Origin: a virus
Taxonomy: Duplodnaviria > Heunggongvirae > Uroviricota > Caudoviricetes
Direction: 5' to 3' (one strand)
DNA: 9,261 nucleotides
Virus record (IMG/VR): IMGVR_UViG_2657245500_000015
Position 1 is the stretch's first letter, and every line of letters begins with the position of its first letter. The position numbers and the translations under genes were made by a program. The notes beneath the pieces are model-generated. The model was given only the letters and a program-made list of their open reading frames with translations, did not search any database and had not been told where the DNA came from. This document shows positions 1 to 9,261 of this stretch, piece after piece.

Positions 1-74
1 TTATCGTGAGAGTAATTCATCGGCACGTTAAATCATATCAGGCGTAATACCACAACCCTTAAGTTAGCGCTTAT

Positions 75-95
75 GGGGGGAAGTCCCCCTTTTTA
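75..95 (+). terminator. Putative rho-independent terminator
   Basis: G/C stem 76-80 (GGGGG) pairs with 85-89 (CCCCC), loop AAGT, followed by TTTTT at 90-94. Stop codons in all three + frames within 1-45 are consistent with a + strand gene ending just left of or at the window start. Confidence 0.4.
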
Positions 96-435
96 ACGTC
101 ATTTTATGCAGGGAATGTGTAGTTCTACACAGATTCTATGCAGTATCGGTATAGTCCCTTTTTATTCTAACTTATTGAAATATATAAAGAATCTGCAAAG
201 CCTCTTTTCAGGGAGCTATGCAGGGTGTTAGTCGTCCCTCTCCAGACACTACATATAGTGCTATATACAGGGCTATATAACGATATATAGATGTTTGGTC
301 ACATGGTGTAACTATCAAGAAACTTAATAGTTTCCTATGTGAAAGTTATTTCTGAGGGTGGGTAAGTGCTCAGGAGATTTCATGAGGATAATTCTTATCC
401 GAATCATCACGTAGAACACGCTTAAGCACAGATAC

Positions 436-458
436 AAAAAAGCCCCCATGAAGGAGGC
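436..458 (-). terminator. Putative rho-independent terminator of the recombinase gene
   Basis: On the minus strand the RNA reads GCCUCC-UUCAU-GGGGGC (6-bp stem with one G-U pair) followed by UUUUUU; it lies 27 nt downstream of the recombinase stop at 485. Confidence 0.55.
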
Positions 459-484
459 TATGAATCTATGCAGGTGATGAGAAA

Positions 485-1051
485 TTATTCAGCTTTAATA
501 CGCTGTACAGTTGACTTGGCAACGTTGAATTGAGCGGCTACTTTAGCGATTGAACTACCAGCAGCAAGAGCAGCTTTAATACCTTCTCTGTCAACCGCTT
601 TACCGTTACCCCTTCCAACTACACGACCAGCAGCTTTAGCAGCTTCATAACCTTCTCTTTGACGCTCAAGCATCATTTTACGTTCAGCTTCAGCCACTGC
701 TGAAAAGATTGTGAGAATCATCTTAGACGTGGGGTTATCGTCACCAGTTATCAGACCTTCTTTGTGAAAGTGAACCTTGATACCTTTCTGTGAAAGTTTA
801 TCCACCAGCGTTAATACATCCACGGTAGAGCGCCCTAAACGTGACAGGTCGTGTACATGGATAGTGTCACCTTCACGAACATAATCGAGCATAGCCTTTA
901 GTTGTGGACGGTCTGTATTCTTCCCAGATGCTTTATCAGTAAATACCTTATCCAGTACGACCCCTTCAAGTTGACGGTCTGTAATCTGCTGGATTGATGA
1001 AACTCGAACATAACCAATGTTAGCCATAATATACTCATTTGCCTTACTCAT
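485..1051 (-). CDS. Serine recombinase, resolvase/invertase family
   Basis: N-terminus MANIGYVRVSSIQQ matches the catalytic-serine motif of Hin/Gin/gamma-delta resolvase; also FTDKASG, DLSRLGRS, ILTIFSAVAEAER E-helix, and a C-terminal HTH (SSIAKVAAQFNVAKSTVQRI). The likely true start is the internal Met at 1027 (MANIGY...), since the ATG at 1051 has no SD. Confidence 0.9.
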   Translation of the reverse strand: MSKANEYIMANIGYVRVSSIQQITDRQLEGVVLDKVFTDKASGKNTDRPQLKAMLDYVREGDTIHVHDLSRLGRSTVDVLTLVDKLSQKGIKVHFHKEGLITGDDNPTSKMILTIFSAVAEAERKMMLERQREGYEAAKAAGRVVGRGNGKAVDREGIKAALAAGSSIAKVAAQFNVAKSTVQRIKAE

Positions 1052-1071
1052 TTGATGGATTGAGTATAACG

Positions 1072-1153
1072 TACCGATAAAGTGTTTTACAAGGCTAATC
1101 GGTATGGTTTTTACAGGGGGTTAGCTATACCTTTTTAGTATGCTATATCGGTA
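1072..1153. promoter_or_regulatory. Candidate recombinase binding (res/crossover-like) region upstream of the recombinase gene
   Basis: Inverted pair TACCGAT (1072-1078) and ATCGGTA (1098-1104), a further ATCGGTA at 1147-1153, and direct GTTTTACAAGG / GGTTTTTACAGG motifs. Its position just 5' of the recombinase gene is typical for res sites. Not validated. Confidence 0.25.
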
Positions 1154-1519
1154 TGCCTAAGAGATGGAGATGCCTTTACAGCAACTCACATAGAAAGTCA
1201 ATAGATATTTGGCTTTTTTGCAAAGGGGGTCACATAGCTGGTGTGACGGGTACTTAGCAGGTATAGACCTGTGATAGATATTTTCGAAGATTCGGGGAAG
1301 ATGAGATTCAAAGAGGGCTAGTCATTTTTTATAAAAATTTTCAGACTCTGAAAAGTTACTGTACAGATTTTATACAGATATCTTTAAAGTATCTGTAAAG
1401 ACTTTTAAGATAAGAGATAGATATCCCAGAAAGGATATCCGTTTAGAAAACCTGTTAAGTATCTCTTAAAAGAGAGTAAACCTTGTCAATAGTGATTGCA
1501 ATAAAAATTTTTATTTCTT

Positions 1520-2182
1520 ATGTCAATTGAGCATATTTTAATCGGGAAACATCATGGGGGTTCTGATTACTGGAGAACTCCATTTCTTATATTCCGCAAT
1601 TTGCACCGTGAGTTTAGTTTCAGTCTGGATGGTGCTGCAACTGAGCATGACACGCTGTTACCACGATTCACCAATGATATTCACAATCAGTCATGGGATG
1701 GTGAACGGGTGTTCTGTAACCCACCATACAGCGACACTAAAACATTCCTCCTAAAAGCCGCTGAAGCGGATTTAGCGGTATTCCTGATACCGTACCGACC
1801 CCACACCACATACTGGCTTAAGCACCTCTTCACAAACCCGCTTTGCCATGAAATCCGTATTCTTCATCGTGCAGTTAAATACCTTCCACCAGCAGGGCAT
1901 AACGGGCTTGCTATTAGGTCACCGTTTGCAAGTGCAATTGTCATCTTTAAAACTGAGCCACGCAGACATGAAATTACGCAGATGATTTGCTGTGCTGATA
2001 CATTGCTACCGTTAACCATCATTAACAGAGGAGGCTTAAGAGGAAGACCCACCATTTACCCACCTGAGACGCTCGACAGCTTCATAAAGCTATACAGGCA
2101 AGGAAAACCCATTAAGTGCATTGCAGATGCTCTCAGAATGCCTCTGAGCACGTCATACAGGATTGCGCAAAGGTTGAGCTAA
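1520..2182 (+). CDS. Dam-family DNA N6-adenine methyltransferase with C-terminal invertase-type HTH domain
   Basis: WRTP, FSLDGAATEHDTLLPRF, VFCNPPYSD and VFLIPYRP motifs are typical of phage (T1-type) Dam methyltransferases. The last ~55 aa (NRGGLRGRPT...LYRQGKPIKCIADALRMPLSTSYRIAQRL) match the GRP plus HTH C-terminal domain of Hin/Gin-type serine recombinases. No obvious SD before the ATG at 1520. Confidence 0.8.
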   Translation: MSIEHILIGKHHGGSDYWRTPFLIFRNLHREFSFSLDGAATEHDTLLPRFTNDIHNQSWDGERVFCNPPYSDTKTFLLKAAEADLAVFLIPYRPHTTYWLKHLFTNPLCHEIRILHRAVKYLPPAGHNGLAIRSPFASAIVIFKTEPRRHEITQMICCADTLLPLTIINRGGLRGRPTIYPPETLDSFIKLYRQGKPIKCIADALRMPLSTSYRIAQRLS

Positions 2183-2286
2183 AATTCTCATAAATATGGC
2201 CATTTACAAGACAGGTGATTTAGATATTAAGAAGTATCCCTGTGAACAATAAATGACCAATCAGTAATTATTCTGTGAAATAATTG

Positions 2287-2315
2287 TTGCAATCTATAAT
2301 CACACATGATATAGT
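2287..2315 (+). promoter_or_regulatory. Candidate sigma70 promoter (TTGCAA-N17-TATAGT) upstream of the replication gene
   Basis: TTGCAA at 2287-2292, 17-bp spacer, TATAGT at 2310-2315. Confidence 0.35.
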
Positions 2316-2548
2316 TTCATAGTGGGCTGATAAAAAAGTTCATGTCTTGAAGTGGTAACACTTGGGGAGGTGTCAGATGATTGACGTCAACAAGACCTCT
2401 CATTCAGGGTAATTACCTCAGCGTTTTAATCATCGTACTGTTTCAGGCATGGACTTCTTTATCAGTCCATCAATCCCCCAGATATTTTAATCACACAGGC
2501 TAATCGGTTTTATCCGGTTGGCCTTTTCACGTATGAGGTAATTTATGA

Positions 2549-3487
2549 ATGTCTAAATATAACCCAAATCAGTTTTATAAATTTGATGTGCGAATCTCTC
2601 AGCTTTCAGAAGAAATTAACGCAGCAGCAAGATTAATTTATATGGTCATGGTTCATAGCTGTGATTTCTATGAAGAGAAGTACAAAGCATATTCACCAAG
2701 TATTGACCATCTAGCTTATATGGCTGGTGTTTCAAAGAGAACGGCAATCAGAGCTATTGAGACACTTGAGAAACACGGTTTAATTCAGGTGCAAAAGAAT
2801 CAGGGTCGTCAAAGCACTTATCGTGTATTCACACTGGATGATAAGCCGGAATTACTTGTAAGACCTACATCACAGGAAGTTGCAGCCTCAGTAAGACAAA
2901 ATGACACCACTACCAGTGACAAAATGTCATCAGTACCAGTGACAAAATGTCATGGGGGTAGTGACAAAATGTCACCCGTGTTAGATAAGTTATTAGATAA
3001 AACATTAGATAATAATATTATAGATAAGAGTAAAGATACTGAACTTGATGTTGGTATCAATGAAGATGATTTTCTTTCTTTGGATGAATTAAATGATTTT
3101 CTCTCTATGAATGAATCTGACCTTGATAGTGAAGCTACTAAAGAGACCTCTAAAACATCTGACTTAGAGGAAGATAAAATCTCTGATGTGAATGAAGTTA
3201 GTGACCAGCAAGATACACCTTGCCGCCTCGAATCAACTGATGATGAATTACCGGATGTTGACCTTGATGATGAAGAAGACCCTGAAGAGGAATTGAAACG
3301 TGAACAGCGTAAAGCAGAAATTAAAGAAAGATTCAGAAAGGCAAAGCTAAAGAACAGGATTGATGAACTTGATGACTTTGATGATAGTGACGATGATTTT
3401 ACTTTTACACCAAAAAAGAAAACTCACACCGAGCCAAAGAAAGAAAAAGTTAAAGTCAGACGTGTTTATGCTGGAGGAATGTTTTAA
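2549..3487 (+). CDS. Replication initiator protein (N-terminal HTH DNA-binding domain, acidic C-terminal tail)
   Basis: N-terminal region (SIDHLAYMAGVSKRTAIRAIETLEKHGLI) resembles HTH-type phage/plasmid replication initiators. Four iterons and an AT-rich tract lie inside the coding sequence, as in lambda O/ori. SD GAGG at 2534-2537. The C-terminal third is highly acidic low-complexity sequence. Confidence 0.8.
   Translation: MSKYNPNQFYKFDVRISQLSEEINAAARLIYMVMVHSCDFYEEKYKAYSPSIDHLAYMAGVSKRTAIRAIETLEKHGLIQVQKNQGRQSTYRVFTLDDKPELLVRPTSQEVAASVRQNDTTTSDKMSSVPVTKCHGGSDKMSPVLDKLLDKTLDNNIIDKSKDTELDVGINEDDFLSLDELNDFLSMNESDLDSEATKETSKTSDLEEDKISDVNEVSDQQDTPCRLESTDDELPDVDLDDEEDPEEELKREQRKAEIKERFRKAKLKNRIDELDDFDDSDDDFTFTPKKKTHTEPKKEKVKVRRVYAGGMF
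2893..2975. repeat. Iteron array: four copies of the palindromic motif (a)GTGACAAAATGTCA(t) at ~23-bp spacing
   Basis: GACAAAATG cores at 2895-2903 (degenerate copy AGACAAAATGACA), 2918-2926, 2941-2949 and 2963-2971. Each full site has dyad symmetry (TGACA-AAA-TGTCA). The 23/23/22-bp period is about two helical turns. Confidence 0.7.
2981..3029. other. AT-rich tract with repeated TTAGATAA (putative DNA unwinding element of the origin)
   Basis: TTAGATAA at 2981-2988, 2993-3000 and 3005-3012 (12-bp period), and TAGATAAG at 3022-3029, immediately downstream of the iterons. Same order (iterons then AT-rich) as lambda ori. Confidence 0.5.
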
Positions 3488-3777
3488 TGAAAGAATATAA
3501 CGGTGAAAAACGATACAAAGATTATCTATTAAGGCGCTACAGCATTTCTCGTGAAGGTCATCTTCTGAAAGATACTCATGGGGAGGTTTACCGGATTCGA
3601 CCGAAGAAGGAAGGAAAGAATTATTTCTTTTTTGATGGTGTGACAGATTTAAAGATTGACGCTTTGAGGTTTGCAGTGATGTATCATTTTGATGTCTGGG
3701 ATTCAGTCCACCAGCTACGATTAAAAGACGGTGACCCCGGTAATCTGAAGGCCACCAATATCATCACAAAACGTTAG
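3487..3777 (+). CDS. Hypothetical small protein, NUMOD4/HNH_3-like (possibly degenerate HNH)
   Basis: The ATG overlaps the replication gene stop (TAATG coupling) and GGAGGA SD lies at 3471-3476. YSISREGHLL, ALRFAVMYHF and LRLKDGDPGNLKATN parallel the Y.VSN.GRV / HRLV / HIDGNK.NN.NL pattern of small HNH homing-endonuclease-like proteins, but the conserved His positions appear replaced. Confidence 0.6.
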   Translation: MKEYNGEKRYKDYLLRRYSISREGHLLKDTHGEVYRIRPKKEGKNYFFFDGVTDLKIDALRFAVMYHFDVWDSVHQLRLKDGDPGNLKATNIITKR

Positions 3778-3959
3778 TTTGTTTTACCATCATCAATCGT
3801 AATTGTGATTTCATATTTGAAAAGCTTAATGCTGAAATTGAATCGTGTACTTTTGGCGATAATCATTTTTAAAAGCTGATACACCAGAAGCACCAGAAAC
3901 ACAAAGCAACCTAAGCTTGCGAATCTGTGAGATTCAGCAATTGTTTCAAGAAAGCCCAT
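3774..3959 (-). CDS. Small hydrophobic (probable membrane) protein, 61 aa
   Basis: Minus-strand ORF with a predicted transmembrane stretch (LGCFVFLVLLVYQLL). SD-like AAGGGGA 5 nt upstream of the ATG, and a candidate minus-strand promoter at 4011-4038. Its 3' end overlaps the convergent ORF ending at 3777. Confidence 0.4.
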   Translation of the reverse strand: MGFLETIAESHRFASLGCFVFLVLLVYQLLKMIIAKSTRFNFSIKLFKYEITITIDDGKTN

Positions 3960-4010
3960 TAATTCCCCTTATTTATCAAAGGGAATGACCTGTATCAGCC
4001 CCTATAACCA

Positions 4011-4038
4011 TAATATCATGTAAATGAGATGTTGACAA
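4011..4038 (-). promoter_or_regulatory. Candidate minus-strand sigma70 promoter (TTGTCA-N16-TATTAT)
   Basis: The reverse complement of 4033-4038 is TTGTCA and of 4011-4016 is TATTAT, with a 16-bp spacer. It would drive the small hydrophobic ORF 3959->3774. Confidence 0.35.
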
Positions 4039-4060
4039 TATGTTAAATAAATGTTAAGAT
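4032..4060 (+). promoter_or_regulatory. Candidate sigma70 promoter (TTGACA-N17-TAAGAT) for the 4097-4812 operon
   Basis: TTGACA at 4032-4037, 17-bp spacer, TAAGAT at 4055-4060. Its -35 overlaps the -35 of the divergent minus-strand promoter. Confidence 0.4.
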
Positions 4061-4096
4061 TGTAGTATGAGTAAGAGATTTAAGGAGATTTTTACA

Positions 4097-4387
4097 ATGA
4101 CTCACACAGTTACGCGCCTTTTGCCAGAGGCATTTGAACGACTGGCAGCAATCAAAGCCAAATATCCCGATATGAAGCACACAGCGCTTGTTGCAGAGGT
4201 TTTAAAAGAGCCGGTAGACTTGACCCCTTTCGATAACGTTAAGGGCGTTGCAGAGGGTTCTAAGGCCATCAGAATCACAACGGGCCAACTGGAACTACTC
4301 AAAGCACAGTCCGCAGTAGCAGGTTGCTCAATGATTCAGGTCTTAAGCGCAAAGGTTCATCAATTAGCGGATAAGCTGGGGGTTTAA
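4097..4387 (+). CDS. Hypothetical DNA-binding protein, ribbon-helix-helix-like (possibly two tandem RHH motifs)
   Basis: The start is moved to the ATG at 4097 because of the AAGGAG SD at 4082-4087 (the ATG at 4067 sits on the promoter). TVTRLLPEAFERLAAIKAKY...HTALVAEVL and IRITTGQLELLKAQSAVAG...MIQVLSAKV each fit a beta-strand/helix/helix RHH pattern. Confidence 0.65.
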   Translation: MTHTVTRLLPEAFERLAAIKAKYPDMKHTALVAEVLKEPVDLTPFDNVKGVAEGSKAIRITTGQLELLKAQSAVAGCSMIQVLSAKVHQLADKLGV

Positions 4388-4812
4388 TGCTATGTACATT
4401 TGATTATCATGCGTTTTATCGACATAGAGGTCATCTTGTCCGTGAGAATAACGGAACATGGAAAGATTTAACTCGTAATGCTGAACCCTTCACACACCAG
4501 CAATTAAAATCCCGCTTCTCCAGATGGAAGAATGCACCAGCAGATACTGGTGATTTTGAGATTATCCATACCTTCGATTATGCCTCAGAAGATGACCTTC
4601 ACGATGCAATTAAGCTGATTGAAGACTTCAATACCTCAGAAAATGTGGATGGTGACAAATATAAATCCCGTGGTAACCGCTATAACCGTGATGATATCAC
4701 TCAGGCCATAAATGCTGGTCAATCTCAGCGATACATTACAGAAAAATATGGTATTTCACGGAGACAGTATTTCTACGTTAAATCATTGATTAATAAAGAC
4801 AATTCAAAATAA
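4387..4812 (+). CDS. Hypothetical protein with C-terminal helix-turn-helix
   Basis: The ATG overlaps the upstream stop (TAATG), indicating translational coupling. C-terminal ITQAINAGQSQRYITEKYGISRRQYFYV resembles resolvase/HTH_23-type HTH motifs. Confidence 0.65.
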   Translation: MLCTFDYHAFYRHRGHLVRENNGTWKDLTRNAEPFTHQQLKSRFSRWKNAPADTGDFEIIHTFDYASEDDLHDAIKLIEDFNTSENVDGDKYKSRGNRYNRDDITQAINAGQSQRYITEKYGISRRQYFYVKSLINKDNSK

Positions 4813-4971
4813 CCATCTCAGTAACGGTAGAATGCACTTTACAGGCAGAGTTGCACCTTAATTTGATAAATTACCTTACCAGCCAGTGCAACTCCCTCTG
4901 TAACCCGCATGGTTACTGGCCTCAGAATGGCTATTTTAAGAGGTCTGAGATGTGTTTTAGAGGAATTTAAA

Positions 4972-5295
4972 ATGAGCAATTACGAATTACAGATTTTCGT
5001 TGATAACGACACCGCTATGATGATTCAGGCTTTCAGTGATTCCGGTGTATCAATTGATTTTGACAGGCTGTTAAAGCTGATGGCTGATAATGCAGAAAAC
5101 ATCTCTGACTTTATTCAGTCGGTGGAGTTTAACGAGCCTCGAATGATGCTACCAATTACCGACTCAAACATGAAAAGATTGGTTATCGAGCAAACGAACA
5201 AACACAGTATTTCCCCAGAGCAATTTTTGAAAGGTGCTGTGACAATCCTGCACAGCGATAATATTCTGGTGACGGATTCTATGAGGGTTCACTAA
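4972..5295 (+). CDS. Hypothetical protein (107 aa)
   Basis: The start is placed at the ATG at 4972, preceded by GAGGA at 4959-4963; the longer ORF from 4909 has no SD. No family recognised. Confidence 0.6.
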   Translation: MSNYELQIFVDNDTAMMIQAFSDSGVSIDFDRLLKLMADNAENISDFIQSVEFNEPRMMLPITDSNMKRLVIEQTNKHSISPEQFLKGAVTILHSDNILVTDSMRVH

Positions 5296-5372
5296 TGGGA
5301 TTGATAATTGCTTGGACAGCTTTAGGTTTATTTGTTGGTTGCTGGGTGGGCAACACAGTAAATAAGAATTGA
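5295..5372 (+). CDS. Possible 25-aa hydrophobic peptide (MGLIIAWTALGLFVGCWVGNTVNKN)
   Basis: The ATG overlaps the stop of the upstream gene (TAATG at 5293-5297). The peptide is a single predicted transmembrane helix. Below the size cut-off of the ORF track. Confidence 0.3.
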   Translation: MGLIIAWTALGLFVGCWVGNTVNKN

Positions 5373-5396
5373 TGTTACCAATCTGTTAAAAAGCTG

Positions 5397-5425
5397 TTGA
5401 CAAATAACCTTAAGCATGGCATAAT
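5397..5425 (+). promoter_or_regulatory. Consensus-like sigma70 promoter (TTGACA-N17-CATAAT)
   Basis: TTGACA at 5397-5402, 17-bp spacer, CATAAT at 5420-5425; predicted transcription start near 5432. Confidence 0.5.
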
Positions 5426-5620
5426 TGTATATATGAGGATAGTCTTCTATCCGAAGTCTATAGGAAGAGCAATTTTTCCTAAAATCATATTTTCAATAAT
5501 CCGATGGATGGATATTCTGAGTTGGAAAGGTGCAATGCTTTTCGTCATGGCCTTTCAGTTTAGTCTGAGAGGTCATCTCAAAAAGTGCTTAATCATTCAT
5601 TATTGAACCCTTACAGCTTT

Positions 5621-5650
5621 GCCCTAACTCATGATTAGGGCGTTTTCTTT
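5621..5650 (+). terminator. Rho-independent terminator
   Basis: Stem GCCCTAA (5621-5627) pairs with TTAGGGC (5635-5641), 7-nt loop, followed by GTTTTCTTT. About 220 nt downstream of the 5397 promoter. Confidence 0.55.
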
Positions 5651-5720
5651 AAGAGTTTTGAAACAGAGCTTTTAAAGAAAGTTTTCCTGAAACTTCGTTA
5701 ACGTTATAAGCAAACCTTCA

Positions 5721-5755
5721 AAGCCCTTCACAGATTATGTTTAGGGCTTTTCTTA
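5721..5755 (+). terminator. Second terminator-like hairpin
   Basis: AAGCCCT (5721-5727) pairs with AGGGCTT (5743-5749), 15-nt loop, followed by TTCTT. Weaker than the first because of the large loop. Confidence 0.3.
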
Positions 5756-5851
5756 ATAGAGCATCTTTAATAAATCGTTAAGTCATCTTCTAAGTGTATT
5801 GGCGTTGAAGGTGCTCTATTAAGAAATAACCACACTTAGAGGAAAAAAATA

Positions 5852-6562
5852 ATGACAAACGATATTTACATTAATGGCAAAGTGATTGATAGCTTCGGTG
5901 ACTGGTCACCACAGACTGAACATCCAGCTATCGCTATTCAGCGCAAAGAGCACGATGCGAGAATTGCACTTGAGCAATCGCTAAAGATGACACCAAAGGA
6001 AATTACCTTTGTGGCTCCTGAACCTCAAGAGATGCCCGATATTGGCAAAACTGAAGCATTATTTAATCTTGAGCGCGAATATTACCCACAGTTAAAAGAA
6101 CAGCGCCTTAGATTAGATGACGCTTACAGCAAAGTTACCTTGATGCAATCAGCTATTGAGCCGTCAGAATTTGAGATTCAGGATGAATTGTCACAGAAAC
6201 CATTTGTCTATTACCAATACGAAGACAATGATGGTTTTGGTACTTTTCCAGAAAACATCACAGGCGTGATTAGTAGTCTTCCTGATGGATATCGAATTGT
6301 GAAGATGGTTAAAGCTTCAAGAGGTGCTGGTCAGTTTATTTACATGACCAATAAGAGCGATGAAGAACTCCGTGAAATTGCCAGACAGAACATCTTGGCA
6401 TCACGTAACAAGCAACTTGAAAATGTTAAGTTGTATCTCTCAAGAGAGCTTCAGGCTATGAAAGAGCTTGTTAGTGAATATGAGTCGCAGAAGAAGATTG
6501 CTATGCAAGCCGATATTGAGCAGCTTACGAAGATTTCTCAGAAGTATAGCAAAGCGATTTAA
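5852..6562 (+). CDS. Hypothetical protein (236 aa, C-terminal predicted coiled coil)
   Basis: Long ORF with SD AGAGG at 5838-5842 and ATG at 5852. No family recognised. Confidence 0.75.
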   Translation: MTNDIYINGKVIDSFGDWSPQTEHPAIAIQRKEHDARIALEQSLKMTPKEITFVAPEPQEMPDIGKTEALFNLEREYYPQLKEQRLRLDDAYSKVTLMQSAIEPSEFEIQDELSQKPFVYYQYEDNDGFGTFPENITGVISSLPDGYRIVKMVKASRGAGQFIYMTNKSDEELREIARQNILASRNKQLENVKLYLSRELQAMKELVSEYESQKKIAMQADIEQLTKISQKYSKAI

Positions 6563-6578
6563 TTTAAGTGAGGTGAGA

Positions 6579-6794
6579 ATGATTGATTTGCAACAGCGTT
6601 ATGAAACTATTAAGTCGGCTTGTGAAAACTTAAAGTTACAAACCAAGCCAGCCTTAAGAATTAAAACCAAACATCAAATTATCACCTCACACAAACCAAA
6701 AACACGCAAGATTCCAAAGTGGTGTATTGACCGTATTCCTTCTGATGCTCAAATCATAGGTGAAACGGAATTACATTATCTTGTCCGACATTAA
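6579..6794 (+). CDS. Hypothetical small basic protein (71 aa)
   Basis: ATG at 6579 preceded by GAGGTGA at 6568-6574. The longer ORF from 6468 overlaps the preceding gene and lacks an SD. Confidence 0.5.
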   Translation: MIDLQQRYETIKSACENLKLQTKPALRIKTKHQIITSHKPKTRKIPKWCIDRIPSDAQIIGETELHYLVRH

Positions 6795-6821
6795 AAAAGA
6801 ATTGGTTGGGTAAAAATCAAC

Positions 6822-6863
6822 GGGAGAGATTATCGAGTGATATCGGTAGTTTCTCCCTTTTTT
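6822..6863 (+). terminator. Putative terminator hairpin with T-run
   Basis: GGGAGA (6822-6827) pairs with TCTCCC (6852-6857), followed by TTTTTT at 6858-6863. The loop is long (24 nt), so stability is uncertain. Confidence 0.4.
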
Positions 6864-6870
6864 GTATGTG

Positions 6871-6913
6871 TGCTACGTGAAATCTTCTGAACAGATATAC
6901 CCACCAAAAATTA
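6871..6913. repeat. Direct repeat copy R1 (TGCTACGTGA-AAT-CTTCTGAACAGATA...AAAAATTA)
   Basis: About 43 bp, near-identical to 9110-9152: blocks TGCTACGTGA (10/10), CTTCTGAACAGATA (14/14) and CAAAAATTA match, with a short variable linker. R1 is additionally bounded by the 7-bp inverted repeat GCTACGT (6872-6878) / ACGTAGC (6920-6926). Confidence 0.7.
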
Positions 6914-6954
6914 TTTTTTACGTAGCTCACGCTTAAAGAGGTGAAAAAATATGA

Positions 6955-9021
6955 ATGGCACAATTTAAAGTTGATGATTTTCTGATTGAGCTAGGTTTTA
7001 ACTCTCAGAGGGTTTTAAAAGGTCTGGAAAAAGCCGAGAAACAAACGATGCAGGTAGCATCACGAATTGAGAAGCGATTGAATAAAGCTTTTAAAGTTAA
7101 CCCTACGCCTTTAAATGATTCTCTCAAGGTCATGGAAAGAAATGTCGATAAAACTGTTTCCAAGATTGAGCAGCGTCTTAAAAACACTAAAGCGTTTAAG
7201 ATTAAAACGGAAATTGAGGATACTTTAAAGCCACTTAGACAACCGAGACAGCCACGAATTAGCGGAAGCAGAGCAATTACAGCAGCGCATAGCGTGAATA
7301 TGAGCAAGCTTCGTGACTTTAATCCTATGCTTGAGAAGTATTTTAAAAGCCAGTATTACAGCTTAAGCAGTAAATCCAAGACACTTGGAAACGAAGCTTT
7401 TAATCGTGAGTTAGCAAAATTAAATCAATCTCTTCGTGAAACACTTTCTAAGTTTAACAAGACCACCAGCAAAAATAATCACAGTGAAAATGCTTCGAAT
7501 GGTCTGGATGTATTAGCTACGAGTGCAATCAAAGCAGGTACAGCCATTTATAGTTTTCAGACAGCCTTAGAAGCTTACAGGCGGATTATGGAGGTTGGTC
7601 TGAAAAAAGAAGCATCACAACGAGCGGCACAATTCGTTTTAGGTGATGAAGGTGCTAAACGAGCTACAGAATTTGTTAAGAATCTTGCTGATAGTAGTGG
7701 TGTAGACCAGATTGAAACATTAAGCAGTTTTGCTAAGTTTTCCGCTGGTGCTGGTGATATGAATGCAGACCAGAAAGAATCCTTATTTTCTAATGTGATT
7801 GGTACATCCAGATTAATGGGGCTAAGCACCGATGAAATTAACGGGATTTTAAAAGCTTTCGAGCAGATGGCATCTAAAGGAAAGATTCAGGCTGAAGAGC
7901 TACGCGGTCAATTAGGTGACAGAATGGCAGGTGCTTTTCAGTTATTTGCCAGAAGTCTTGGGATGACTACGGAAGAATTAGACAAGGCTATGAAAGACGG
8001 TAAGGTTCTTTCTAAAGATGTTCTCCCTAAAGTATCCGCTGAAATGGGAAAGATGATTGATAAAGCGGGAGGATGGGAAAAGATTATTAACTCTACTCAG
8101 ACGCAGTTAGGCCGCTTAAGTAATTCATGGAATAATAATTTGGCCTTAATGTTCGATGGTTCACAGGAAGGTTTAACAGACTTTACAAGGTCACTGACTA
8201 ATTTACTTAATTCACTGGGTGGTCAATCTAAAAATCTTGGTGAACATTTTGGCGACTTGATGAAAAGCATGTCAAACGGTATTGATGATTTAACCACGAT
8301 TAGCTACCGAGTGCAGGGATTCTTTGACAGAGTGACCCTTGCTTACAGAGAATTAAATGACACTCAAAAAGCTGTAGCTGATGGTATCGCAAATGGCCTG
8401 TTAAGTGCATTAAAGGGACTTGCTGGTATTGTCGCTGTAAGGTCTGGTATTGGTGCTGTAGGTGGTATCTGGAACTTAATTAGGGCTATTTCCACGCTTG
8501 GGAATGTAGCAAATACAGCAGCAGGAAGAATTAATTCACGTTCTGGTGGTGTTGAAAGTGGAAAAAGTAGGCTATCTGTAGCTGATGCAATTACCAGAGT
8601 AATGATTGTCGGTATGACAACTGATGTGATTAATGCCATTGTCAAACCGTTCTATGAACGTCAGATGAGTAAGTCAGATAATCCGATTGATAAAGTTGTA
8701 AGGTCAAAGGTGGAACCCACAGACCAGGCATTAACTGGTGACATGAACTCTTTAGCCGCTGTTTTATGGGCTATGGTTCATGGCAAATCAAAAGATGTTC
8801 CACAGTTTTCACCTGAAGCATTAAATAATCTAAAAGGTCGAGTGGAAACATTCACACAAGATTTAAAGGTTATCAAGCCGTCAGTAAATATTCAGCCTCA
8901 GACAATCAATATCACAACTCAGACGGTACTTGATGGAAAGGTTATTGATGAAAGAACCACATCGCATATTAATCGTATGCAGGAAGATACCTTGATTAGC
9001 TCAGCTTACCCAGAGGAATAA
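6955..9021 (+). CDS. Tape-measure-domain protein (phage tail tape measure-like), 688 aa
   Basis: The segment FEQMASKGKIQAEELRGQLGDRMAGAFQLFARSLGMTTEELDKAMKDGKVLSKDVLPKVSAEMGK matches the conserved tape-measure domain pattern (SKGK.Q.EEL..QL..R.PGA.Q..A...G....EL...M..GK.L...VLP). A Gly-rich hydrophobic segment (GLAGIVAVRSGIGAVGGIWNLI) is typical of tape-measure proteins. SD AAAGAGGTGA at 6936-6945. Confidence 0.85.
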   Translation: MAQFKVDDFLIELGFNSQRVLKGLEKAEKQTMQVASRIEKRLNKAFKVNPTPLNDSLKVMERNVDKTVSKIEQRLKNTKAFKIKTEIEDTLKPLRQPRQPRISGSRAITAAHSVNMSKLRDFNPMLEKYFKSQYYSLSSKSKTLGNEAFNRELAKLNQSLRETLSKFNKTTSKNNHSENASNGLDVLATSAIKAGTAIYSFQTALEAYRRIMEVGLKKEASQRAAQFVLGDEGAKRATEFVKNLADSSGVDQIETLSSFAKFSAGAGDMNADQKESLFSNVIGTSRLMGLSTDEINGILKAFEQMASKGKIQAEELRGQLGDRMAGAFQLFARSLGMTTEELDKAMKDGKVLSKDVLPKVSAEMGKMIDKAGGWEKIINSTQTQLGRLSNSWNNNLALMFDGSQEGLTDFTRSLTNLLNSLGGQSKNLGEHFGDLMKSMSNGIDDLTTISYRVQGFFDRVTLAYRELNDTQKAVADGIANGLLSALKGLAGIVAVRSGIGAVGGIWNLIRAISTLGNVANTAAGRINSRSGGVESGKSRLSVADAITRVMIVGMTTDVINAIVKPFYERQMSKSDNPIDKVVRSKVEPTDQALTGDMNSLAAVLWAMVHGKSKDVPQFSPEALNNLKGRVETFTQDLKVIKPSVNIQPQTINITTQTVLDGKVIDERTTSHINRMQEDTLISSAYPEE

Positions 9022-9109
9022 ACAATGTTAGAGCTACTAATATTTATTGCCACACATGGCAATCTATTAATCTTTATCTAGTATGACGATTCAACTATGA
9101 ATAGTCGAA

Positions 9110-9152
9110 TGCTACGTGATTTCTTCTGAACAGATACCAACATCAAAAATTA
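9110..9152. repeat. Direct repeat copy R2
   Basis: Near-identical to R1 (6871-6913); lies 89 bp downstream of the tape-measure gene stop. It lacks the right-hand ACGTAGC inverted-repeat arm seen at R1. Confidence 0.7.
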
Positions 9153-9261
9153 GATGAACCGCCCCGGGTTTCCTGGAGAGTGTTTTATCTGTGAACTCAG
9201 GCTGCCAGATCATTGTTTCCGATGGAAGCATAATAAGCTTTTTCTGCTTCTGCCGGAGGAG
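9112..9261 (-). CDS. Possible 3' end of a minus-strand gene continuing beyond the window (partial)
   Basis: The minus-strand frame is open for 49 codons from the window edge to a TAG at 9112-9114 (...LIFDVGICSEEIT*). The last ~110 bp are about 50% GC by manual count, against roughly 40% elsewhere. A + strand frame from the ATG at 9154 is also open, so strand and reality are uncertain. Confidence 0.25.
   Translation of the reverse strand, partial: LLRQKQKKLIMLPSETMIWQPEFTDKTLSRKPGAVHLIFDVGICSEEIT

What the first reader, a model, noticed from the sequence alone, without database searches (positions are those of the whole stretch)
5721..5851. Interleaved inverted repeats in the leader of gene 5852, one arm overlapping the ribosome binding site
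A 12-bp perfect inverted repeat (CTTAATAGAGCA 5752-5763 / TGCTCTATTAAG 5812-5823) is interleaved with a 9-bp perfect inverted repeat (TCTAAGTGT 5789-5797 / ACACTTAGA 5832-5840). The second arm of the latter abuts the SD (AGAGG 5838-5842) of the 236-aa gene. An A-B-A'-B' order implies either a pseudoknot or mutually exclusive helices, a layout typical of translational or attenuation control. A terminator-like hairpin sits immediately upstream (5721-5755).
Basis: seen in the sequence. Interest (0 to 1): 0.45.

Follow-up and report, generated by a model that had tools for sequence, protein, structure and literature searches.

The report
Anti-Shine-Dalgarno hairpin in island leader
The leader of this gene folds into a long, evolutionarily conserved RNA hairpin whose tip is complementary to the gene's own ribosome binding site, a previously uncatalogued RNA control element that most likely keeps the gene untranslated, found in a small mobile island carried by about one in eleven complete E. 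coli genomes.

Summary
A/A' is a 21-22 bp RNA stem (5749-5770 / 5805-5826). B/B' is a 12-bp complementarity (5786-5797 / 5832-5843). B lies in the apical loop of the A/A' hairpin, and B' covers the SD of the 236-aa gene.

Across 80 distinct homologous leaders, A/A' is 99% paired. Eleven of its 19 consensus pairs show compensatory double changes. Its exceptions to Watson-Crick pairing are overwhelmingly U.G on the + strand. The structure is therefore most simply an RNA of the + strand.

The loop and the SD region change together between hairpin types: CUUCUAAG x CUUAGAGG against UUCACCUC x GAGGUGAA.

The module sits at the end of a roughly 420-nt structured leader. That leader is driven by a near-consensus promoter (5397-5425) and contains two terminator-like hairpins (T1 5620-5650, T2 5720-5755).

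The most likely function is translational silencing of read-through transcripts by loop-SD pairing. Whether the pairing acts in cis, as a strained pseudoknot, or in trans after processing, as in c4, CI or IsrK, is unresolved. Classical attenuation is not supported.

No Rfam family matches. I rate it a new variant of a known kind, of moderate interest.

The parts
5397..5425 (+). Sigma-70 promoter of the leader: TTGACA, 17-nt spacer, CATAAT, with TG before the -10. Inferred transcription start about 5432.
   Evidence: Best promoter match in the window, 11 of 12. The -35 and flanks are nearly invariant in about 100 homologous leaders. The start site is inferred, not mapped.
5525..5586 (+). Conserved 5' leader domain: an invariant 20-mer GAAAGGTGCAATGCTTTTCG (5525-5544) and a covarying hairpin (5547-5556 / 5567-5576).
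   Evidence: The 20-mer is identical in all homologues of the first alignment and was used to fetch 112 loci. The hairpin sequence varies with pairing kept, e.g. GGCCUUUC/GAGAGGUC, GGCCUCUC/GAGAGGCU and GCCUAUUUAG/CUAGAUAGGC. It is predicted in the fold of the whole leader.
5620..5650 (+). T1, intrinsic-terminator-like hairpin: GCCCUAA..UUAGGGC followed by UUUUCUUU.
   Evidence: Flagged by the terminator scan. Present in window-type leaders and absent from some others, such as L003.
5644..5680 (+). H4, a 17-bp hairpin whose 5' arm is the U tract of T1. The layout matches T2 plus A/A'.
   Evidence: Inverted repeat I2. Predicted in the whole-leader fold. A compensatory change, UUUCUUUAA/UUAAAGAAA to UUUCUUCAA/UUGAAGAAA, is seen in L122. 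Direct repeat D1 links T1 and T2.
5715..5719 (+). CCUUC (CCUCC in many homologues), a short second anti-SD-like element just 5' of T2.
   Evidence: It pairs with the SD in the nested minimum-energy fold, which gives a three-way junction. The mean probability that the SD is unpaired is 0.10-0.18 across types. Only 4 bp are involved, so this is weak evidence.
5720..5755 (+). T2, terminator-like hairpin: AAAGCCCU..AGGGCUUU followed by UUUCUU.
   Evidence: Inverted repeat I5. Folds. AGGGC plus the U tract is conserved in 80 of 81 distinct modules; loop insertions are tolerated.
5749..5770 (+). Arm A, the 5' strand of the long hairpin. It starts inside the U tract of T2.
   Evidence: Covariation.
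5776..5804 (+). Upper stem-loop of the hairpin: CGUUAA/UUGGCG, CAU/GUG and a 7-nt apical loop CUUCUAA (5787-5793).
   Evidence: Fold of the isolated hairpin. Loop bases 5789-5792 are unpaired with probability about 1.0 in the ensemble.
5786..5797 (+). B, the anti-SD segment UCUUCUAAGUGU, made of the apical loop plus its 3' flank.
   Evidence: Inverted repeat I6. Duplex with the translation initiation region -16.9 kcal/mol. Type-specific complementarity.
5805..5826 (+). Arm A', the 3' strand of the long hairpin.
5832..5843 (+). B', ACACUUAGAGGA, which includes the Shine-Dalgarno sequence AGAGGA (5838-5843).
5852..6562 (+). The regulated gene: a 236-aa protein, predicted largely helical and coiled-coil, function unknown.
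   Evidence: ORF list. No Pfam, PHROG or NCBIfam match. AlphaFold2 model of modest confidence, pLDDT 68.6, mostly long helices. No fold match among viral structures. The same family (25-100% identity, mostly 233-246 aa) follows the module in 110 of 111 loci, the exception being the unrelated locus L097.
6822..6857 (+). Strong terminator (15-bp stem followed by T6) after the 71-aa ORF (6579-6794) and before the tape measure gene (6955-9021).
   Evidence: Top hit of the terminator scan. It is operon context and was not analysed further.

Best explanation
Positions 5749-5843 form a conserved cis-regulatory RNA module of the + strand transcript. A very stable hairpin about 30 bp long (A/A' plus an upper stem) displays an anti-Shine-Dalgarno sequence (B) in its apical loop. 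That loop base-pairs over 11-13 bp with the SD region (B') of the gene that starts 5-25 nt downstream of the hairpin. The pairing blocks 30S binding, so transcripts that escape the two upstream terminators (T1, T2) are not translated.

Together with the strong promoter at 5397-5425, the leader then works as a layered lock on the island's 236-aa / 71-aa / tape-measure operon: premature termination first, translational masking second. Rho-dependent polarity may follow from the lack of translation.

What is shown: both helices exist as conserved complementarities, the hairpin is RNA on the + strand, and the loop and SD co-vary.

What is inferred: the pairing represses translation, and some unknown trigger relieves it (helper phage or induction signal, RNase III cleavage of the stem, or an antiterminated, ribosome-coupled polymerase).

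Geometry: in the window the linker between A' and B' is only 5 nt. A cis contact therefore needs about 7 A-U-rich base pairs at the foot of the stem to open, at a cost of about 9.5 kcal/mol against about -17 kcal/mol for the duplex. Otherwise the contact is made between molecules.
For: - **Hairpin stability.** -33.2 kcal/mol, z = -9.06; region z = -7.05.
- **Covariation in A/A'.** On 80 distinct homologous modules RNAalifold predicts 19 pairs, 11 of them with double compensatory changes. Pair counting gives helix 1 as 99.1% paired; the whole structure is 90.8% paired against 41-53% when partners are slid, and 0 of 500 shuffles reach the observed covariation score.
- **Strand.** From the per-pair table I count 228 U.G/G.U cells against 13 true mismatches in helix 1. 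The covariance model scores 100-124 bits on the + strand against 25-43 bits on the reverse strand.
- **Loop position.** Five stem sequence types (T1-T5) all place the anti-SD in or at the apical loop.
- **Loop-SD specificity.** Cognate duplexes average -18.0 (T1), -18.4 (T2) and -14.4 (T4) kcal/mol, against -7 to -9.6 for shuffled loops. In the cross-type matrix each loop type pairs best, or nearly best, with an initiation region of its own specificity group, T1/T3, T2 or T4/T5.
- **Variants keep pairing.** U/C with G at AAG[U/C]CUC; ACGC for ACAC; GGGG for GAGG.
- **Conserved placement.** The module is always directly upstream of the same protein family, although that protein diverges to 25% identity. 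There is exactly one copy per locus in 877 kb searched.
- **Leader context.** Promoter and terminators.
Against: There are no expression data of any kind.

With a 5-9 nt linker in type 1, a rigid hairpin of about 30 bp cannot reach B' without partial melting, so the cis pseudoknot is strained. Linker length varies from 5 to 33 nt without any matching change in stem length.

As nested alternatives, A/A' beats B/B' by 9.3 kcal/mol.

Most covariation reflects about 5-7 exchanges of whole modules between types, not many independent point events.

B and B' are almost invariant within a type, and part of the conservation of B' is simply SD conservation.

A 9-nt inverted repeat is expected by chance in a single sequence.

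Nested folding already predicts SD occlusion by the CCUYC element 5' of T2, so the loop contact may be redundant.
Confidence: 0.55

Rival explanations
1. A processed, trans-acting antisense RNA with the logic of P1/P7 c4, P4 CI or IsrK. The hairpin, or its upper part, is cut out of the leader, for instance by RNase III in the 21-bp stem. It accumulates and pairs in trans with the SD of other read-through transcripts of the same element and of co-resident elements of the same type. It would then act as an immunity-like determinant, with at least two specificities: T1-T3 against T4-T5.
For: - The anti-SD is displayed in a 6-9 nt loop on a long stem, as in antisense RNAs.
- The short and variable linkers argue against a fixed pseudoknot geometry.
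- There are two loop/SD specificity groups.
- Up to 6 copies of the region occur per genome, and two copies lie on one contig (loci L084 and L120).
- An uninterrupted 21-bp duplex fits the general RNase III substrate requirement as I know it (established knowledge; stem).
- Published precedents for leader-derived RNAs acting on their own operon: IsrK and P4 CI (PMC4825925).
Against: No Rfam C4 or IsrK match. There is no second, upstream target copy as in c4 (a1/b1) or P4 (seqA). There is no terminator or RNase P-like signal that would define a discrete small RNA. The hairpin is made only by transcripts that have already passed T2, and each of those carries its own SD in cis.
Confidence: 0.22
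2. The hairpin is mainly an RNA processing or stability element: an RNase III site, or a 5' protective stem for the mature mRNA. Under this view the loop-SD complementarity is secondary or even activating. For example, cleavage would remove the anti-SD and the CCUUC element and so switch translation on, as RNase III does in the lambda N leader.
For: The duplex is long and perfect, and its central AGCA/UGCU is invariant in all but one type. T2 and the hairpin stack directly, and T1 is followed by a similar hairpin, H4, that has no anti-SD loop. This suggests the stems have a role of their own.
Against: It does not by itself explain why the loop and the SD flank co-vary between types. It also does not explain why the anti-SD is always apical.
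Confidence: 0.12
3. Transcription attenuation: A/A' and B/B' are alternative terminator and antiterminator helices.
For: The arms are interleaved, and a terminator lies immediately upstream.
Against: Neither helix is followed by a U run; A' is followed by AUAACC and B' by A7. A' and B' are transcribed after T2 and so cannot influence it. The alternative fold is 9.3 kcal/mol less stable. No conserved leader peptide is present: the short ATG-initiated frames in the T1 and T2 loops lack an SD and are absent from type 2 leaders.
Confidence: 0.04
4. A DNA-level element: a protein-binding palindrome, a recombination site or a single-stranded-DNA hairpin, rather than an RNA structure.
For: The island encodes two serine recombinases, a replication initiator and an HNH nuclease. 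G.T pairs are also tolerated in single-stranded-DNA hairpins (established knowledge).
Against: The stem sequence is replaced wholesale between types while pairing is kept, and 228 wobble cells occur on one strand only. The spacing between B and B' varies. The loop is complementary to the SD, which has meaning only in mRNA. The element lies in a transcribed leader 9 nt from the start codon.
Confidence: 0.03

Closest known systems
P1/P7 c4 antisense RNA and P4 CI RNA (Rfam C4 family, RF01695)
   Same: A regulatory RNA segment is encoded in the leader of the operon it controls, upstream of its target. It is complementary to the ribosome binding site of the first downstream gene. It belongs to a phage or satellite-like mobile element. 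Different specificities exist in related elements. The c4 mechanism is cited from established knowledge; the P4 CI description is from PMC4825925.
   Different: No covariance-model match. Here there is one complementary box, not two, and no upstream target copy. The antisense segment sits on a rod of about 30 bp directly abutting its target, rather than in a compact tRNA-like RNA processed by RNase P. Processing and trans action are untested here.
IsrK of Salmonella Gifsy-1 (PMC4825925)
   Same: A promoter drives a structured short RNA that ends at an intrinsic terminator. A fraction reads through into a downstream ORF, and that long isoform is translationally inactive because of leader structure.
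   Different: In IsrK the short isoform activates the long one in trans by remodelling it. Here no conserved complementarity was found between the short RNA (promoter to T1 or T2) and the hairpin. There is no sequence or covariance-model similarity.
Loop-to-RBS pseudoknots of IncI-alpha and IncB plasmid rep mRNAs (ColIb-P9 repZ, pMU720 repA)
   Same: A hairpin loop in the leader pairs with a sequence at the ribosome binding site of the downstream gene, which gives an A-B-A'-B' pseudoknot topology (established knowledge).
   Different: Those pseudoknots pair next to the SD, not with it, and they activate translation. They are antagonised by a separate antisense RNA. Here the loop covers the SD itself and no antisense gene is evident.
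SD-sequestering fold-back structures: IS10 fold-back inhibition, and the T4 e, soc and 49 early transcripts
   Same: Transcripts that start upstream carry an anti-SD that masks the ribosome binding site, so read-through transcription yields no protein (established knowledge).
   Different: In those cases the anti-SD and SD are the two arms of one simple hairpin, and a promoter inside the hairpin produces the active mRNA. Here the anti-SD is an apical loop, and no internal promoter was found.
RNase III-processed leaders: lambda N leader, T7 early mRNAs, pnp and rnc leaders
   Same: A long, nearly perfect duplex lies in a 5' leader next to a translation start (established knowledge).
   Different: Cleavage is untested here. 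The known examples have no co-varying loop-SD complementarity.

Membership tests
C4 antisense RNA family (P1/P7 c4, P4 CI; Rfam RF01695) | Sequence and structure match to the family covariance model | tested here: not met
   cmscan of the whole window at E<=1 and of 5380-5900 at E<=10 lists no C4 hit. Only miRNA-like hairpin noise appears, far below the gathering scores.
C4 antisense RNA family (P1/P7 c4, P4 CI; Rfam RF01695) | A leader-encoded segment complementary to the RBS of the first downstream gene of the same transcript | tested here: met
   B 5786-5797 pairs with B' 5832-5843, 12 bp, -16.9 kcal/mol. The complementarity is conserved and type-specific.
C4 antisense RNA family (P1/P7 c4, P4 CI; Rfam RF01695) | Two complementary boxes and/or an additional target copy upstream of the RNA (a1/b1 and a2/b2; seqA and seqC) | tested here: not met
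   The only good matches to B' in the window are B' itself and the reverse complement of B; a 2-mismatch site at 3160 is at chance level. There is no consistent upstream partner for the loop.
C4 antisense RNA family (P1/P7 c4, P4 CI; Rfam RF01695) | Processing, by RNase P among others, to a stable small RNA that acts in trans | not testable with these tools
   Needs Northern blots or RNA-seq and genetics. The ACCA at 5829-5832 is 2 nt away from the stem end, so it is not in the stem-N-CCA register.
IsrK-type dual-function RNA (Rfam RF01394; PMC4825925) | Promoter, then a short RNA with an intrinsic terminator, then a read-through isoform that carries a downstream ORF | tested here: met
   In silico only: promoter 5397-5425, T1 and T2, then the SD and ATG at 5852.
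IsrK-type dual-function RNA (Rfam RF01394; PMC4825925) | The short isoform base-pairs with the long isoform to switch it to a translatable structure | tested here: inconclusive
   RNAduplex of the hairpin interior against the upstream leader gives only diffuse, gapped and non-conserved pairings. The 12-nt complementarity 5714-5725 / 5801-5812 is broken by the common U-to-C variant.
IsrK-type dual-function RNA (Rfam RF01394; PMC4825925) | Match to the family covariance model | tested here: not met
   No hit.
Transcription attenuator (terminator/antiterminator switch) | Two mutually exclusive helices of comparable stability, one of them an intrinsic terminator (stem followed by a U run) | tested here: not met
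   No U run follows A' or B'. The fold with forced B/B' is 9.3 kcal/mol worse than the fold with A/A'.
H-type pseudoknot translational operator | Both helices supported in homologues | tested here: met
   Helix 1 is 99.1% paired with 11 covarying pairs. Helix 2 is 79.4% paired on a sequence alignment that misaligns types 4 and 5. Duplex energies are type-specific.
H-type pseudoknot translational operator | Loop lengths sterically compatible with both helices forming at the same time | tested here: inconclusive
   The 5-nt linker cannot span about 30 bp. It becomes feasible only if about 7 basal A-U-rich pairs open, at +9.5 kcal/mol against -16.9 for the duplex. This is my own geometric estimate, and no pseudoknot-capable folding program was available.
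RNase III substrate | About two turns (20 bp or more) of uninterrupted double-stranded RNA | tested here: met
   21 consecutive pairs, 5750-5770 / 5805-5825; 21-25 bp in the other types.
RNase III substrate | Actual cleavage | not testable with these tools
   Needs an in vitro cleavage assay or 5'-end mapping in rnc mutants.

The most novel reading that the evidence does not exclude
The hairpin is the immunity determinant of a previously undescribed family of small E. coli islands that resemble phage satellites: large serine recombinase, O-like Rep, HNH nuclease, own tape measure and baseplate genes. It would be cut from the leader and act in trans as an antisense RNA that blocks translation of the late operon. 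Elongation could also be blocked, through polarity. At least two heteroimmune specificity classes would exist (loops CUUCUAAG and UUCACCUC), by analogy with P1/P7 c4 but built on an unrelated RNA fold.
Probability: 0.18. Interest if true: 0.7.

Novelty: new variant of a known kind. Interest (0 to 1): 0.5.

Why it matters
The module is a well-supported structured RNA motif that no Rfam family matches. It controls the first gene of the tail-related operon of a small mobile island. A relative of the leader-gene region is found in 474 of 5,426 complete E. coli genomes, and also in E. albertii and Salmonella.

It gives a concrete, testable handle on how this uncharacterised island keeps its structural genes silent and what switches them on. 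The mutations to make are obvious: loop against SD flank.

It also adds a distinct architecture to the known ways of masking a ribosome binding site. Here the anti-SD is displayed on the tip of a 30-bp rod that starts in a terminator's U tract.

If the trans-acting reading holds, it would be a second, independently evolved, c4-like RNA immunity system.

Tried and rejected
- **Rfam.** Scans of the window and of the leader alone found no family, only eukaryotic miRNA-like hairpin noise.
- **Phage and plasmid collections.** No match for the leader or the 236-aa protein. A first near-identity search hit only the IS elements at the window ends.
- **Degenerate hairpin pattern.** It had the wrong spacing and found only 2 loci, which wasted a scan.
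- **IsrK-like trans activator or decoy.** I looked for conserved complementarity between the upstream leader and the hairpin loop. The pairings were diffuse and not type-specific, so I rejected them as evidence. The 12-nt repeat 5714-5725 / 5801-5812 is not maintained in homologues.
- **Promoter inside the hairpin** (T4 e or IS10 logic). None was found by the scan or by eye.
- **Leader peptide.** The short ATG frames in the T1 and T2 loops have no SD and are not conserved.
- **RNase P-type 3' CCA signal.** It is not in register.
- **Function of the 236-aa protein.** No Pfam, PHROG, NCBIfam or PDB sequence match. The AlphaFold2 model has pLDDT 68.6 and is mostly long helices. Foldseek against viral structures gave nothing below E = 0.03. 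The RefSeq name 'transposase' is unsupported.
- **Q-like antiterminator idea.** I considered that the 107-aa gene just upstream of the promoter (4972-5295) could be one. There is no sequence match, and the model was too poor to search (pLDDT 51.5). The idea remains untested.
- **Literature.** Searches for a description of the island found nothing relevant.

Full report
**1. Observation**

Both repeats are longer than reported.
- A/A' is perfect over 15 nt (5749-5763 / 5812-5826). It runs to 22 nt with two U.G pairs.
- B/B' runs to 12 nt (5786-5797 / 5832-5843) with one U.G pair.
- B' contains the SD, AGAGGA, 9 nt before the ATG at 5852.

A perfect inverted repeat of 12 nt or more is rare in shuffles of the window (mean 0.095 per shuffle). 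A 9-nt inverted repeat is not rare (mean 4.5 per shuffle). B/B' alone would therefore not be significant.

The region folds far better than shuffled controls: 5700-5870 has z = -7.05, and the hairpin alone gives -33.2 kcal/mol with z = -9.06.

**2. Context**

The window is a copy, truncated by insertion sequences, of a small island. In a complete genome the island is about 11 kb and splits yecE. There it is bounded by an invertase-like recombinase and a large serine recombinase. It carries these genes:
- a Dam-like methyltransferase;
- an O-like replication initiator;
- an HNH nuclease;
- the 236-aa gene;
- a small ORF (71 aa in the window);
- a tape measure gene;
- a baseplate gene.

Relatives of the 5300-6900 segment occur in 474 of 5,426 complete E. 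coli genomes. All copies are chromosomal, with up to 6 per genome. None is found in the phage or plasmid collections.

Upstream of the finding lies the best promoter match in the window (5397-5425, 11 of 12 with an extended -10) and two terminator-like hairpins:
- T1 (5620-5650) was flagged by the scanner.

From the inferred start near 5432, the leader is about 420 nt long and strongly structured (z = -7.69). T1 is followed by a 17-bp hairpin (H4, 5644-5680) that uses the U tract of T1 as its 5' arm. T2 is followed by A/A' in exactly the same way. The two units look like a duplication.

**3. Homologues**

I fetched 112 loci through an invariant 20-mer of the leader, and a few more through the protein. 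This gave 105 distinct leaders and 80 distinct hairpin modules.

The stems fall into five sequence types: T1 (26 modules, the window's type), T2 (42), T3 (1), T4 (10) and T5 (1). The types share the architecture but have largely different stem sequences.

The evidence for A/A' is as follows.
- RNAalifold predicts a 19-pair consensus helix, and 11 of those pairs show changes on both sides with pairing kept.
- Pair counting gives 99.1% of cells paired in this helix.
- The whole structure is 90.8% paired, against 41-53% when partners are slid by 1-3 columns. No shuffle out of 500 reaches the observed covariation score.
- From the per-pair table I count 228 U.G/G.U cells against 13 real mismatches. 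The structure is therefore read on the + strand, most simply as RNA.
- A covariance model scores 100-124 bits on the + strand and 25-43 bits on the reverse strand. It finds exactly one copy per locus in 877 kb.

One caveat applies. The covariation mostly reflects a handful of exchanges of whole modules, not many independent substitutions.

**4. The loop-SD contact**

In every type the anti-SD lies in or at the apical loop and is complementary to the initiation region.
- Types 1-3: CUUCUAAG(UGU) pairs with (ACA)CUUAGAGG. In type 2 the pairing extends on the other side as CCUCUUCUAAG with CUUAGAAGAGG.
- Type 4: UUCACCUCU pairs with AGAGGUGAA.
- Type 5: AUUCACCUC pairs with GAGGUGAAU.

Cognate duplexes average -18.0, -18.4 and -14.4 kcal/mol for T1, T2 and T4. 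Shuffled loops give -7 to -9.6 kcal/mol. In the cross-type matrix each loop type pairs best, or nearly best, with an initiation region of its own specificity group, T1/T3, T2 or T4/T5. Minor variants keep pairing through wobble.

The downstream protein is always of the same family, although it diverges to 25% identity. The module is therefore under its own selection.

**5. Mechanism**

As nested alternatives the two helices are not comparable. Forcing B/B' costs 9.3 kcal/mol relative to the fold with A/A'. Neither helix is followed by a U run. Classical attenuation is therefore not supported.

Both helices must coexist in one of two ways:
- as a pseudoknot in cis;
- with B/B' formed between molecules.

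In the window the linker is 5 nt, and the rod is about 30 bp long. By my estimate, a cis contact needs about 7 basal A-U-rich pairs to open, at +9.5 kcal/mol against -16.9 kcal/mol for the duplex. The cis pseudoknot would then be marginally stable. Linker length varies from 5 to 33 nt with no compensating change in stem length, which fits a trans or otherwise flexible contact better.

Nested folding also predicts that the SD pairs with a CCUYC element just 5' of T2, with a mean probability of 0.10-0.18 that the SD is unpaired. This suggests redundant masking.

I therefore commit to translational silencing of read-through transcripts by loop-SD pairing (confidence 0.55 for the cis or unspecified version). 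The processed, trans-acting antisense version is the main rival (0.22). An RNase III processing or stability role comes next (0.12). Attenuation (0.04) and a DNA-level element (0.03) are unlikely.

**6. Comparison with known systems**

The closest matches in logic are these:
- the leader-embedded antisense RNAs of P1/P7 (c4) and P4 (CI);
- the IsrK read-through system of Gifsy-1 (PMC4825925);
- the loop-RBS pseudoknots of IncI-alpha and IncB rep mRNAs;
- simple SD fold-back masking (IS10, T4 e);
- RNase III-processed leaders.

Membership in the C4 or IsrK families fails on two counts: the covariance-model test and the requirement for a second or upstream target. The module works like these systems but is not a member of them.

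**7. Verdict**

This is a real, conserved and previously uncatalogued RNA control module. Its kind is known (masking of the SD by a leader structure), but its architecture is new, and it sits in an uncharacterised, widespread E. coli island. I rate it a new variant of a known kind, with interest 0.5.

What the 236-aa protein does remains unknown, as does what relieves the block.

Noticed in passing
window 1-9261; L001 7116-18203: The window is an IS-flanked copy (right end 9144-9261 is IS629/IS3; the left end matches IS421-family hits) of an island of about 11 kb. In NZ_LR882052.1 the island splits yecE (DUF72). It carries a 188-aa invertase-like recombinase, a large serine recombinase, a Dam-like methyltransferase, an O-like Rep, an HNH nuclease, a tape measure protein and a baseplate protein. 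Its size and gene content resemble a phage satellite. I found no description of it in the papers searched.
   Followed up: partly
window 5397-5650: A near-consensus promoter is followed by a conserved, covarying, structured RNA of about 215 nt that ends at terminator T1. It includes a 5'-terminal hairpin, the invariant 20-mer at 5525-5544 and the hairpin 5547-5576. It looks like a small-RNA gene in its own right, and it has no Rfam match.
   Followed up: partly
window 5436-5463; L002 and L004 leaders, including inside the T2 loop: Small cassettes of about 28-30 nt that form hairpins are present in some leaders and cleanly absent from others. Examples are GAGGATAGTCTTCTATCCGAAGTCT, GTGAGGTATGTTCTATACCGAACATTCT and GAGGATGATTCCATGAATATCCGAATCACC. 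They behave like tiny insertions. Their origin is unknown.
   Followed up: no
window 5503-5513: A (GGAT)n tract in the leader varies from 2 to 5 copies among homologues.
   Followed up: no
window 5620-5680 compared with 5720-5826: T1 plus hairpin H4 looks like a shortened duplicate of T2 plus the A/A' hairpin. In both units the terminator's U tract is the 5' arm of the next hairpin. Leaders such as that of E. albertii (L003) have only one unit.
   Followed up: partly
window 5852-6562: RefSeq names this protein family 'transposase'. It has no Pfam, PHROG, NCBIfam or PDB sequence support, and the model is mostly long helices. The name is probably wrong.
   Followed up: yes
window 6955-9021: The closest phage relatives of the tape measure protein are full-length matches at about 29% identity to Felix O1-like myoviruses (Felixounavirus). 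This is a possible hint at the helper phage group.
   Followed up: partly
window 6822-6857: A very strong terminator (15-bp stem followed by T6) separates the 236-aa and 71-aa genes from the tape measure gene. Expression of the tail genes from the leader promoter would therefore need read-through or antitermination.
   Followed up: no
window 4972-5295: The ORF listed as 128 aa is a 107-aa protein in homologues (start at 4972). It lies immediately upstream of the leader promoter, in the position that Q occupies relative to PR' in lambdoid phages. It has no family match, and the structure model was too poor to test the idea.
   Followed up: partly
window 1348-1472: A hairpin (1348-1409) and 9-nt inverted repeats (1402/1464 and 1411/1460) lie in the intergenic region between the invertase-like gene and the methyltransferase gene. 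They could be recombinase sites.
   Followed up: no
L084 and L120 (contig OOBX01000469.1): Two identical copies of the leader lie about 12 kb apart on one 23-kb metagenomic contig, so elements can sit in tandem or close together.
   Followed up: no
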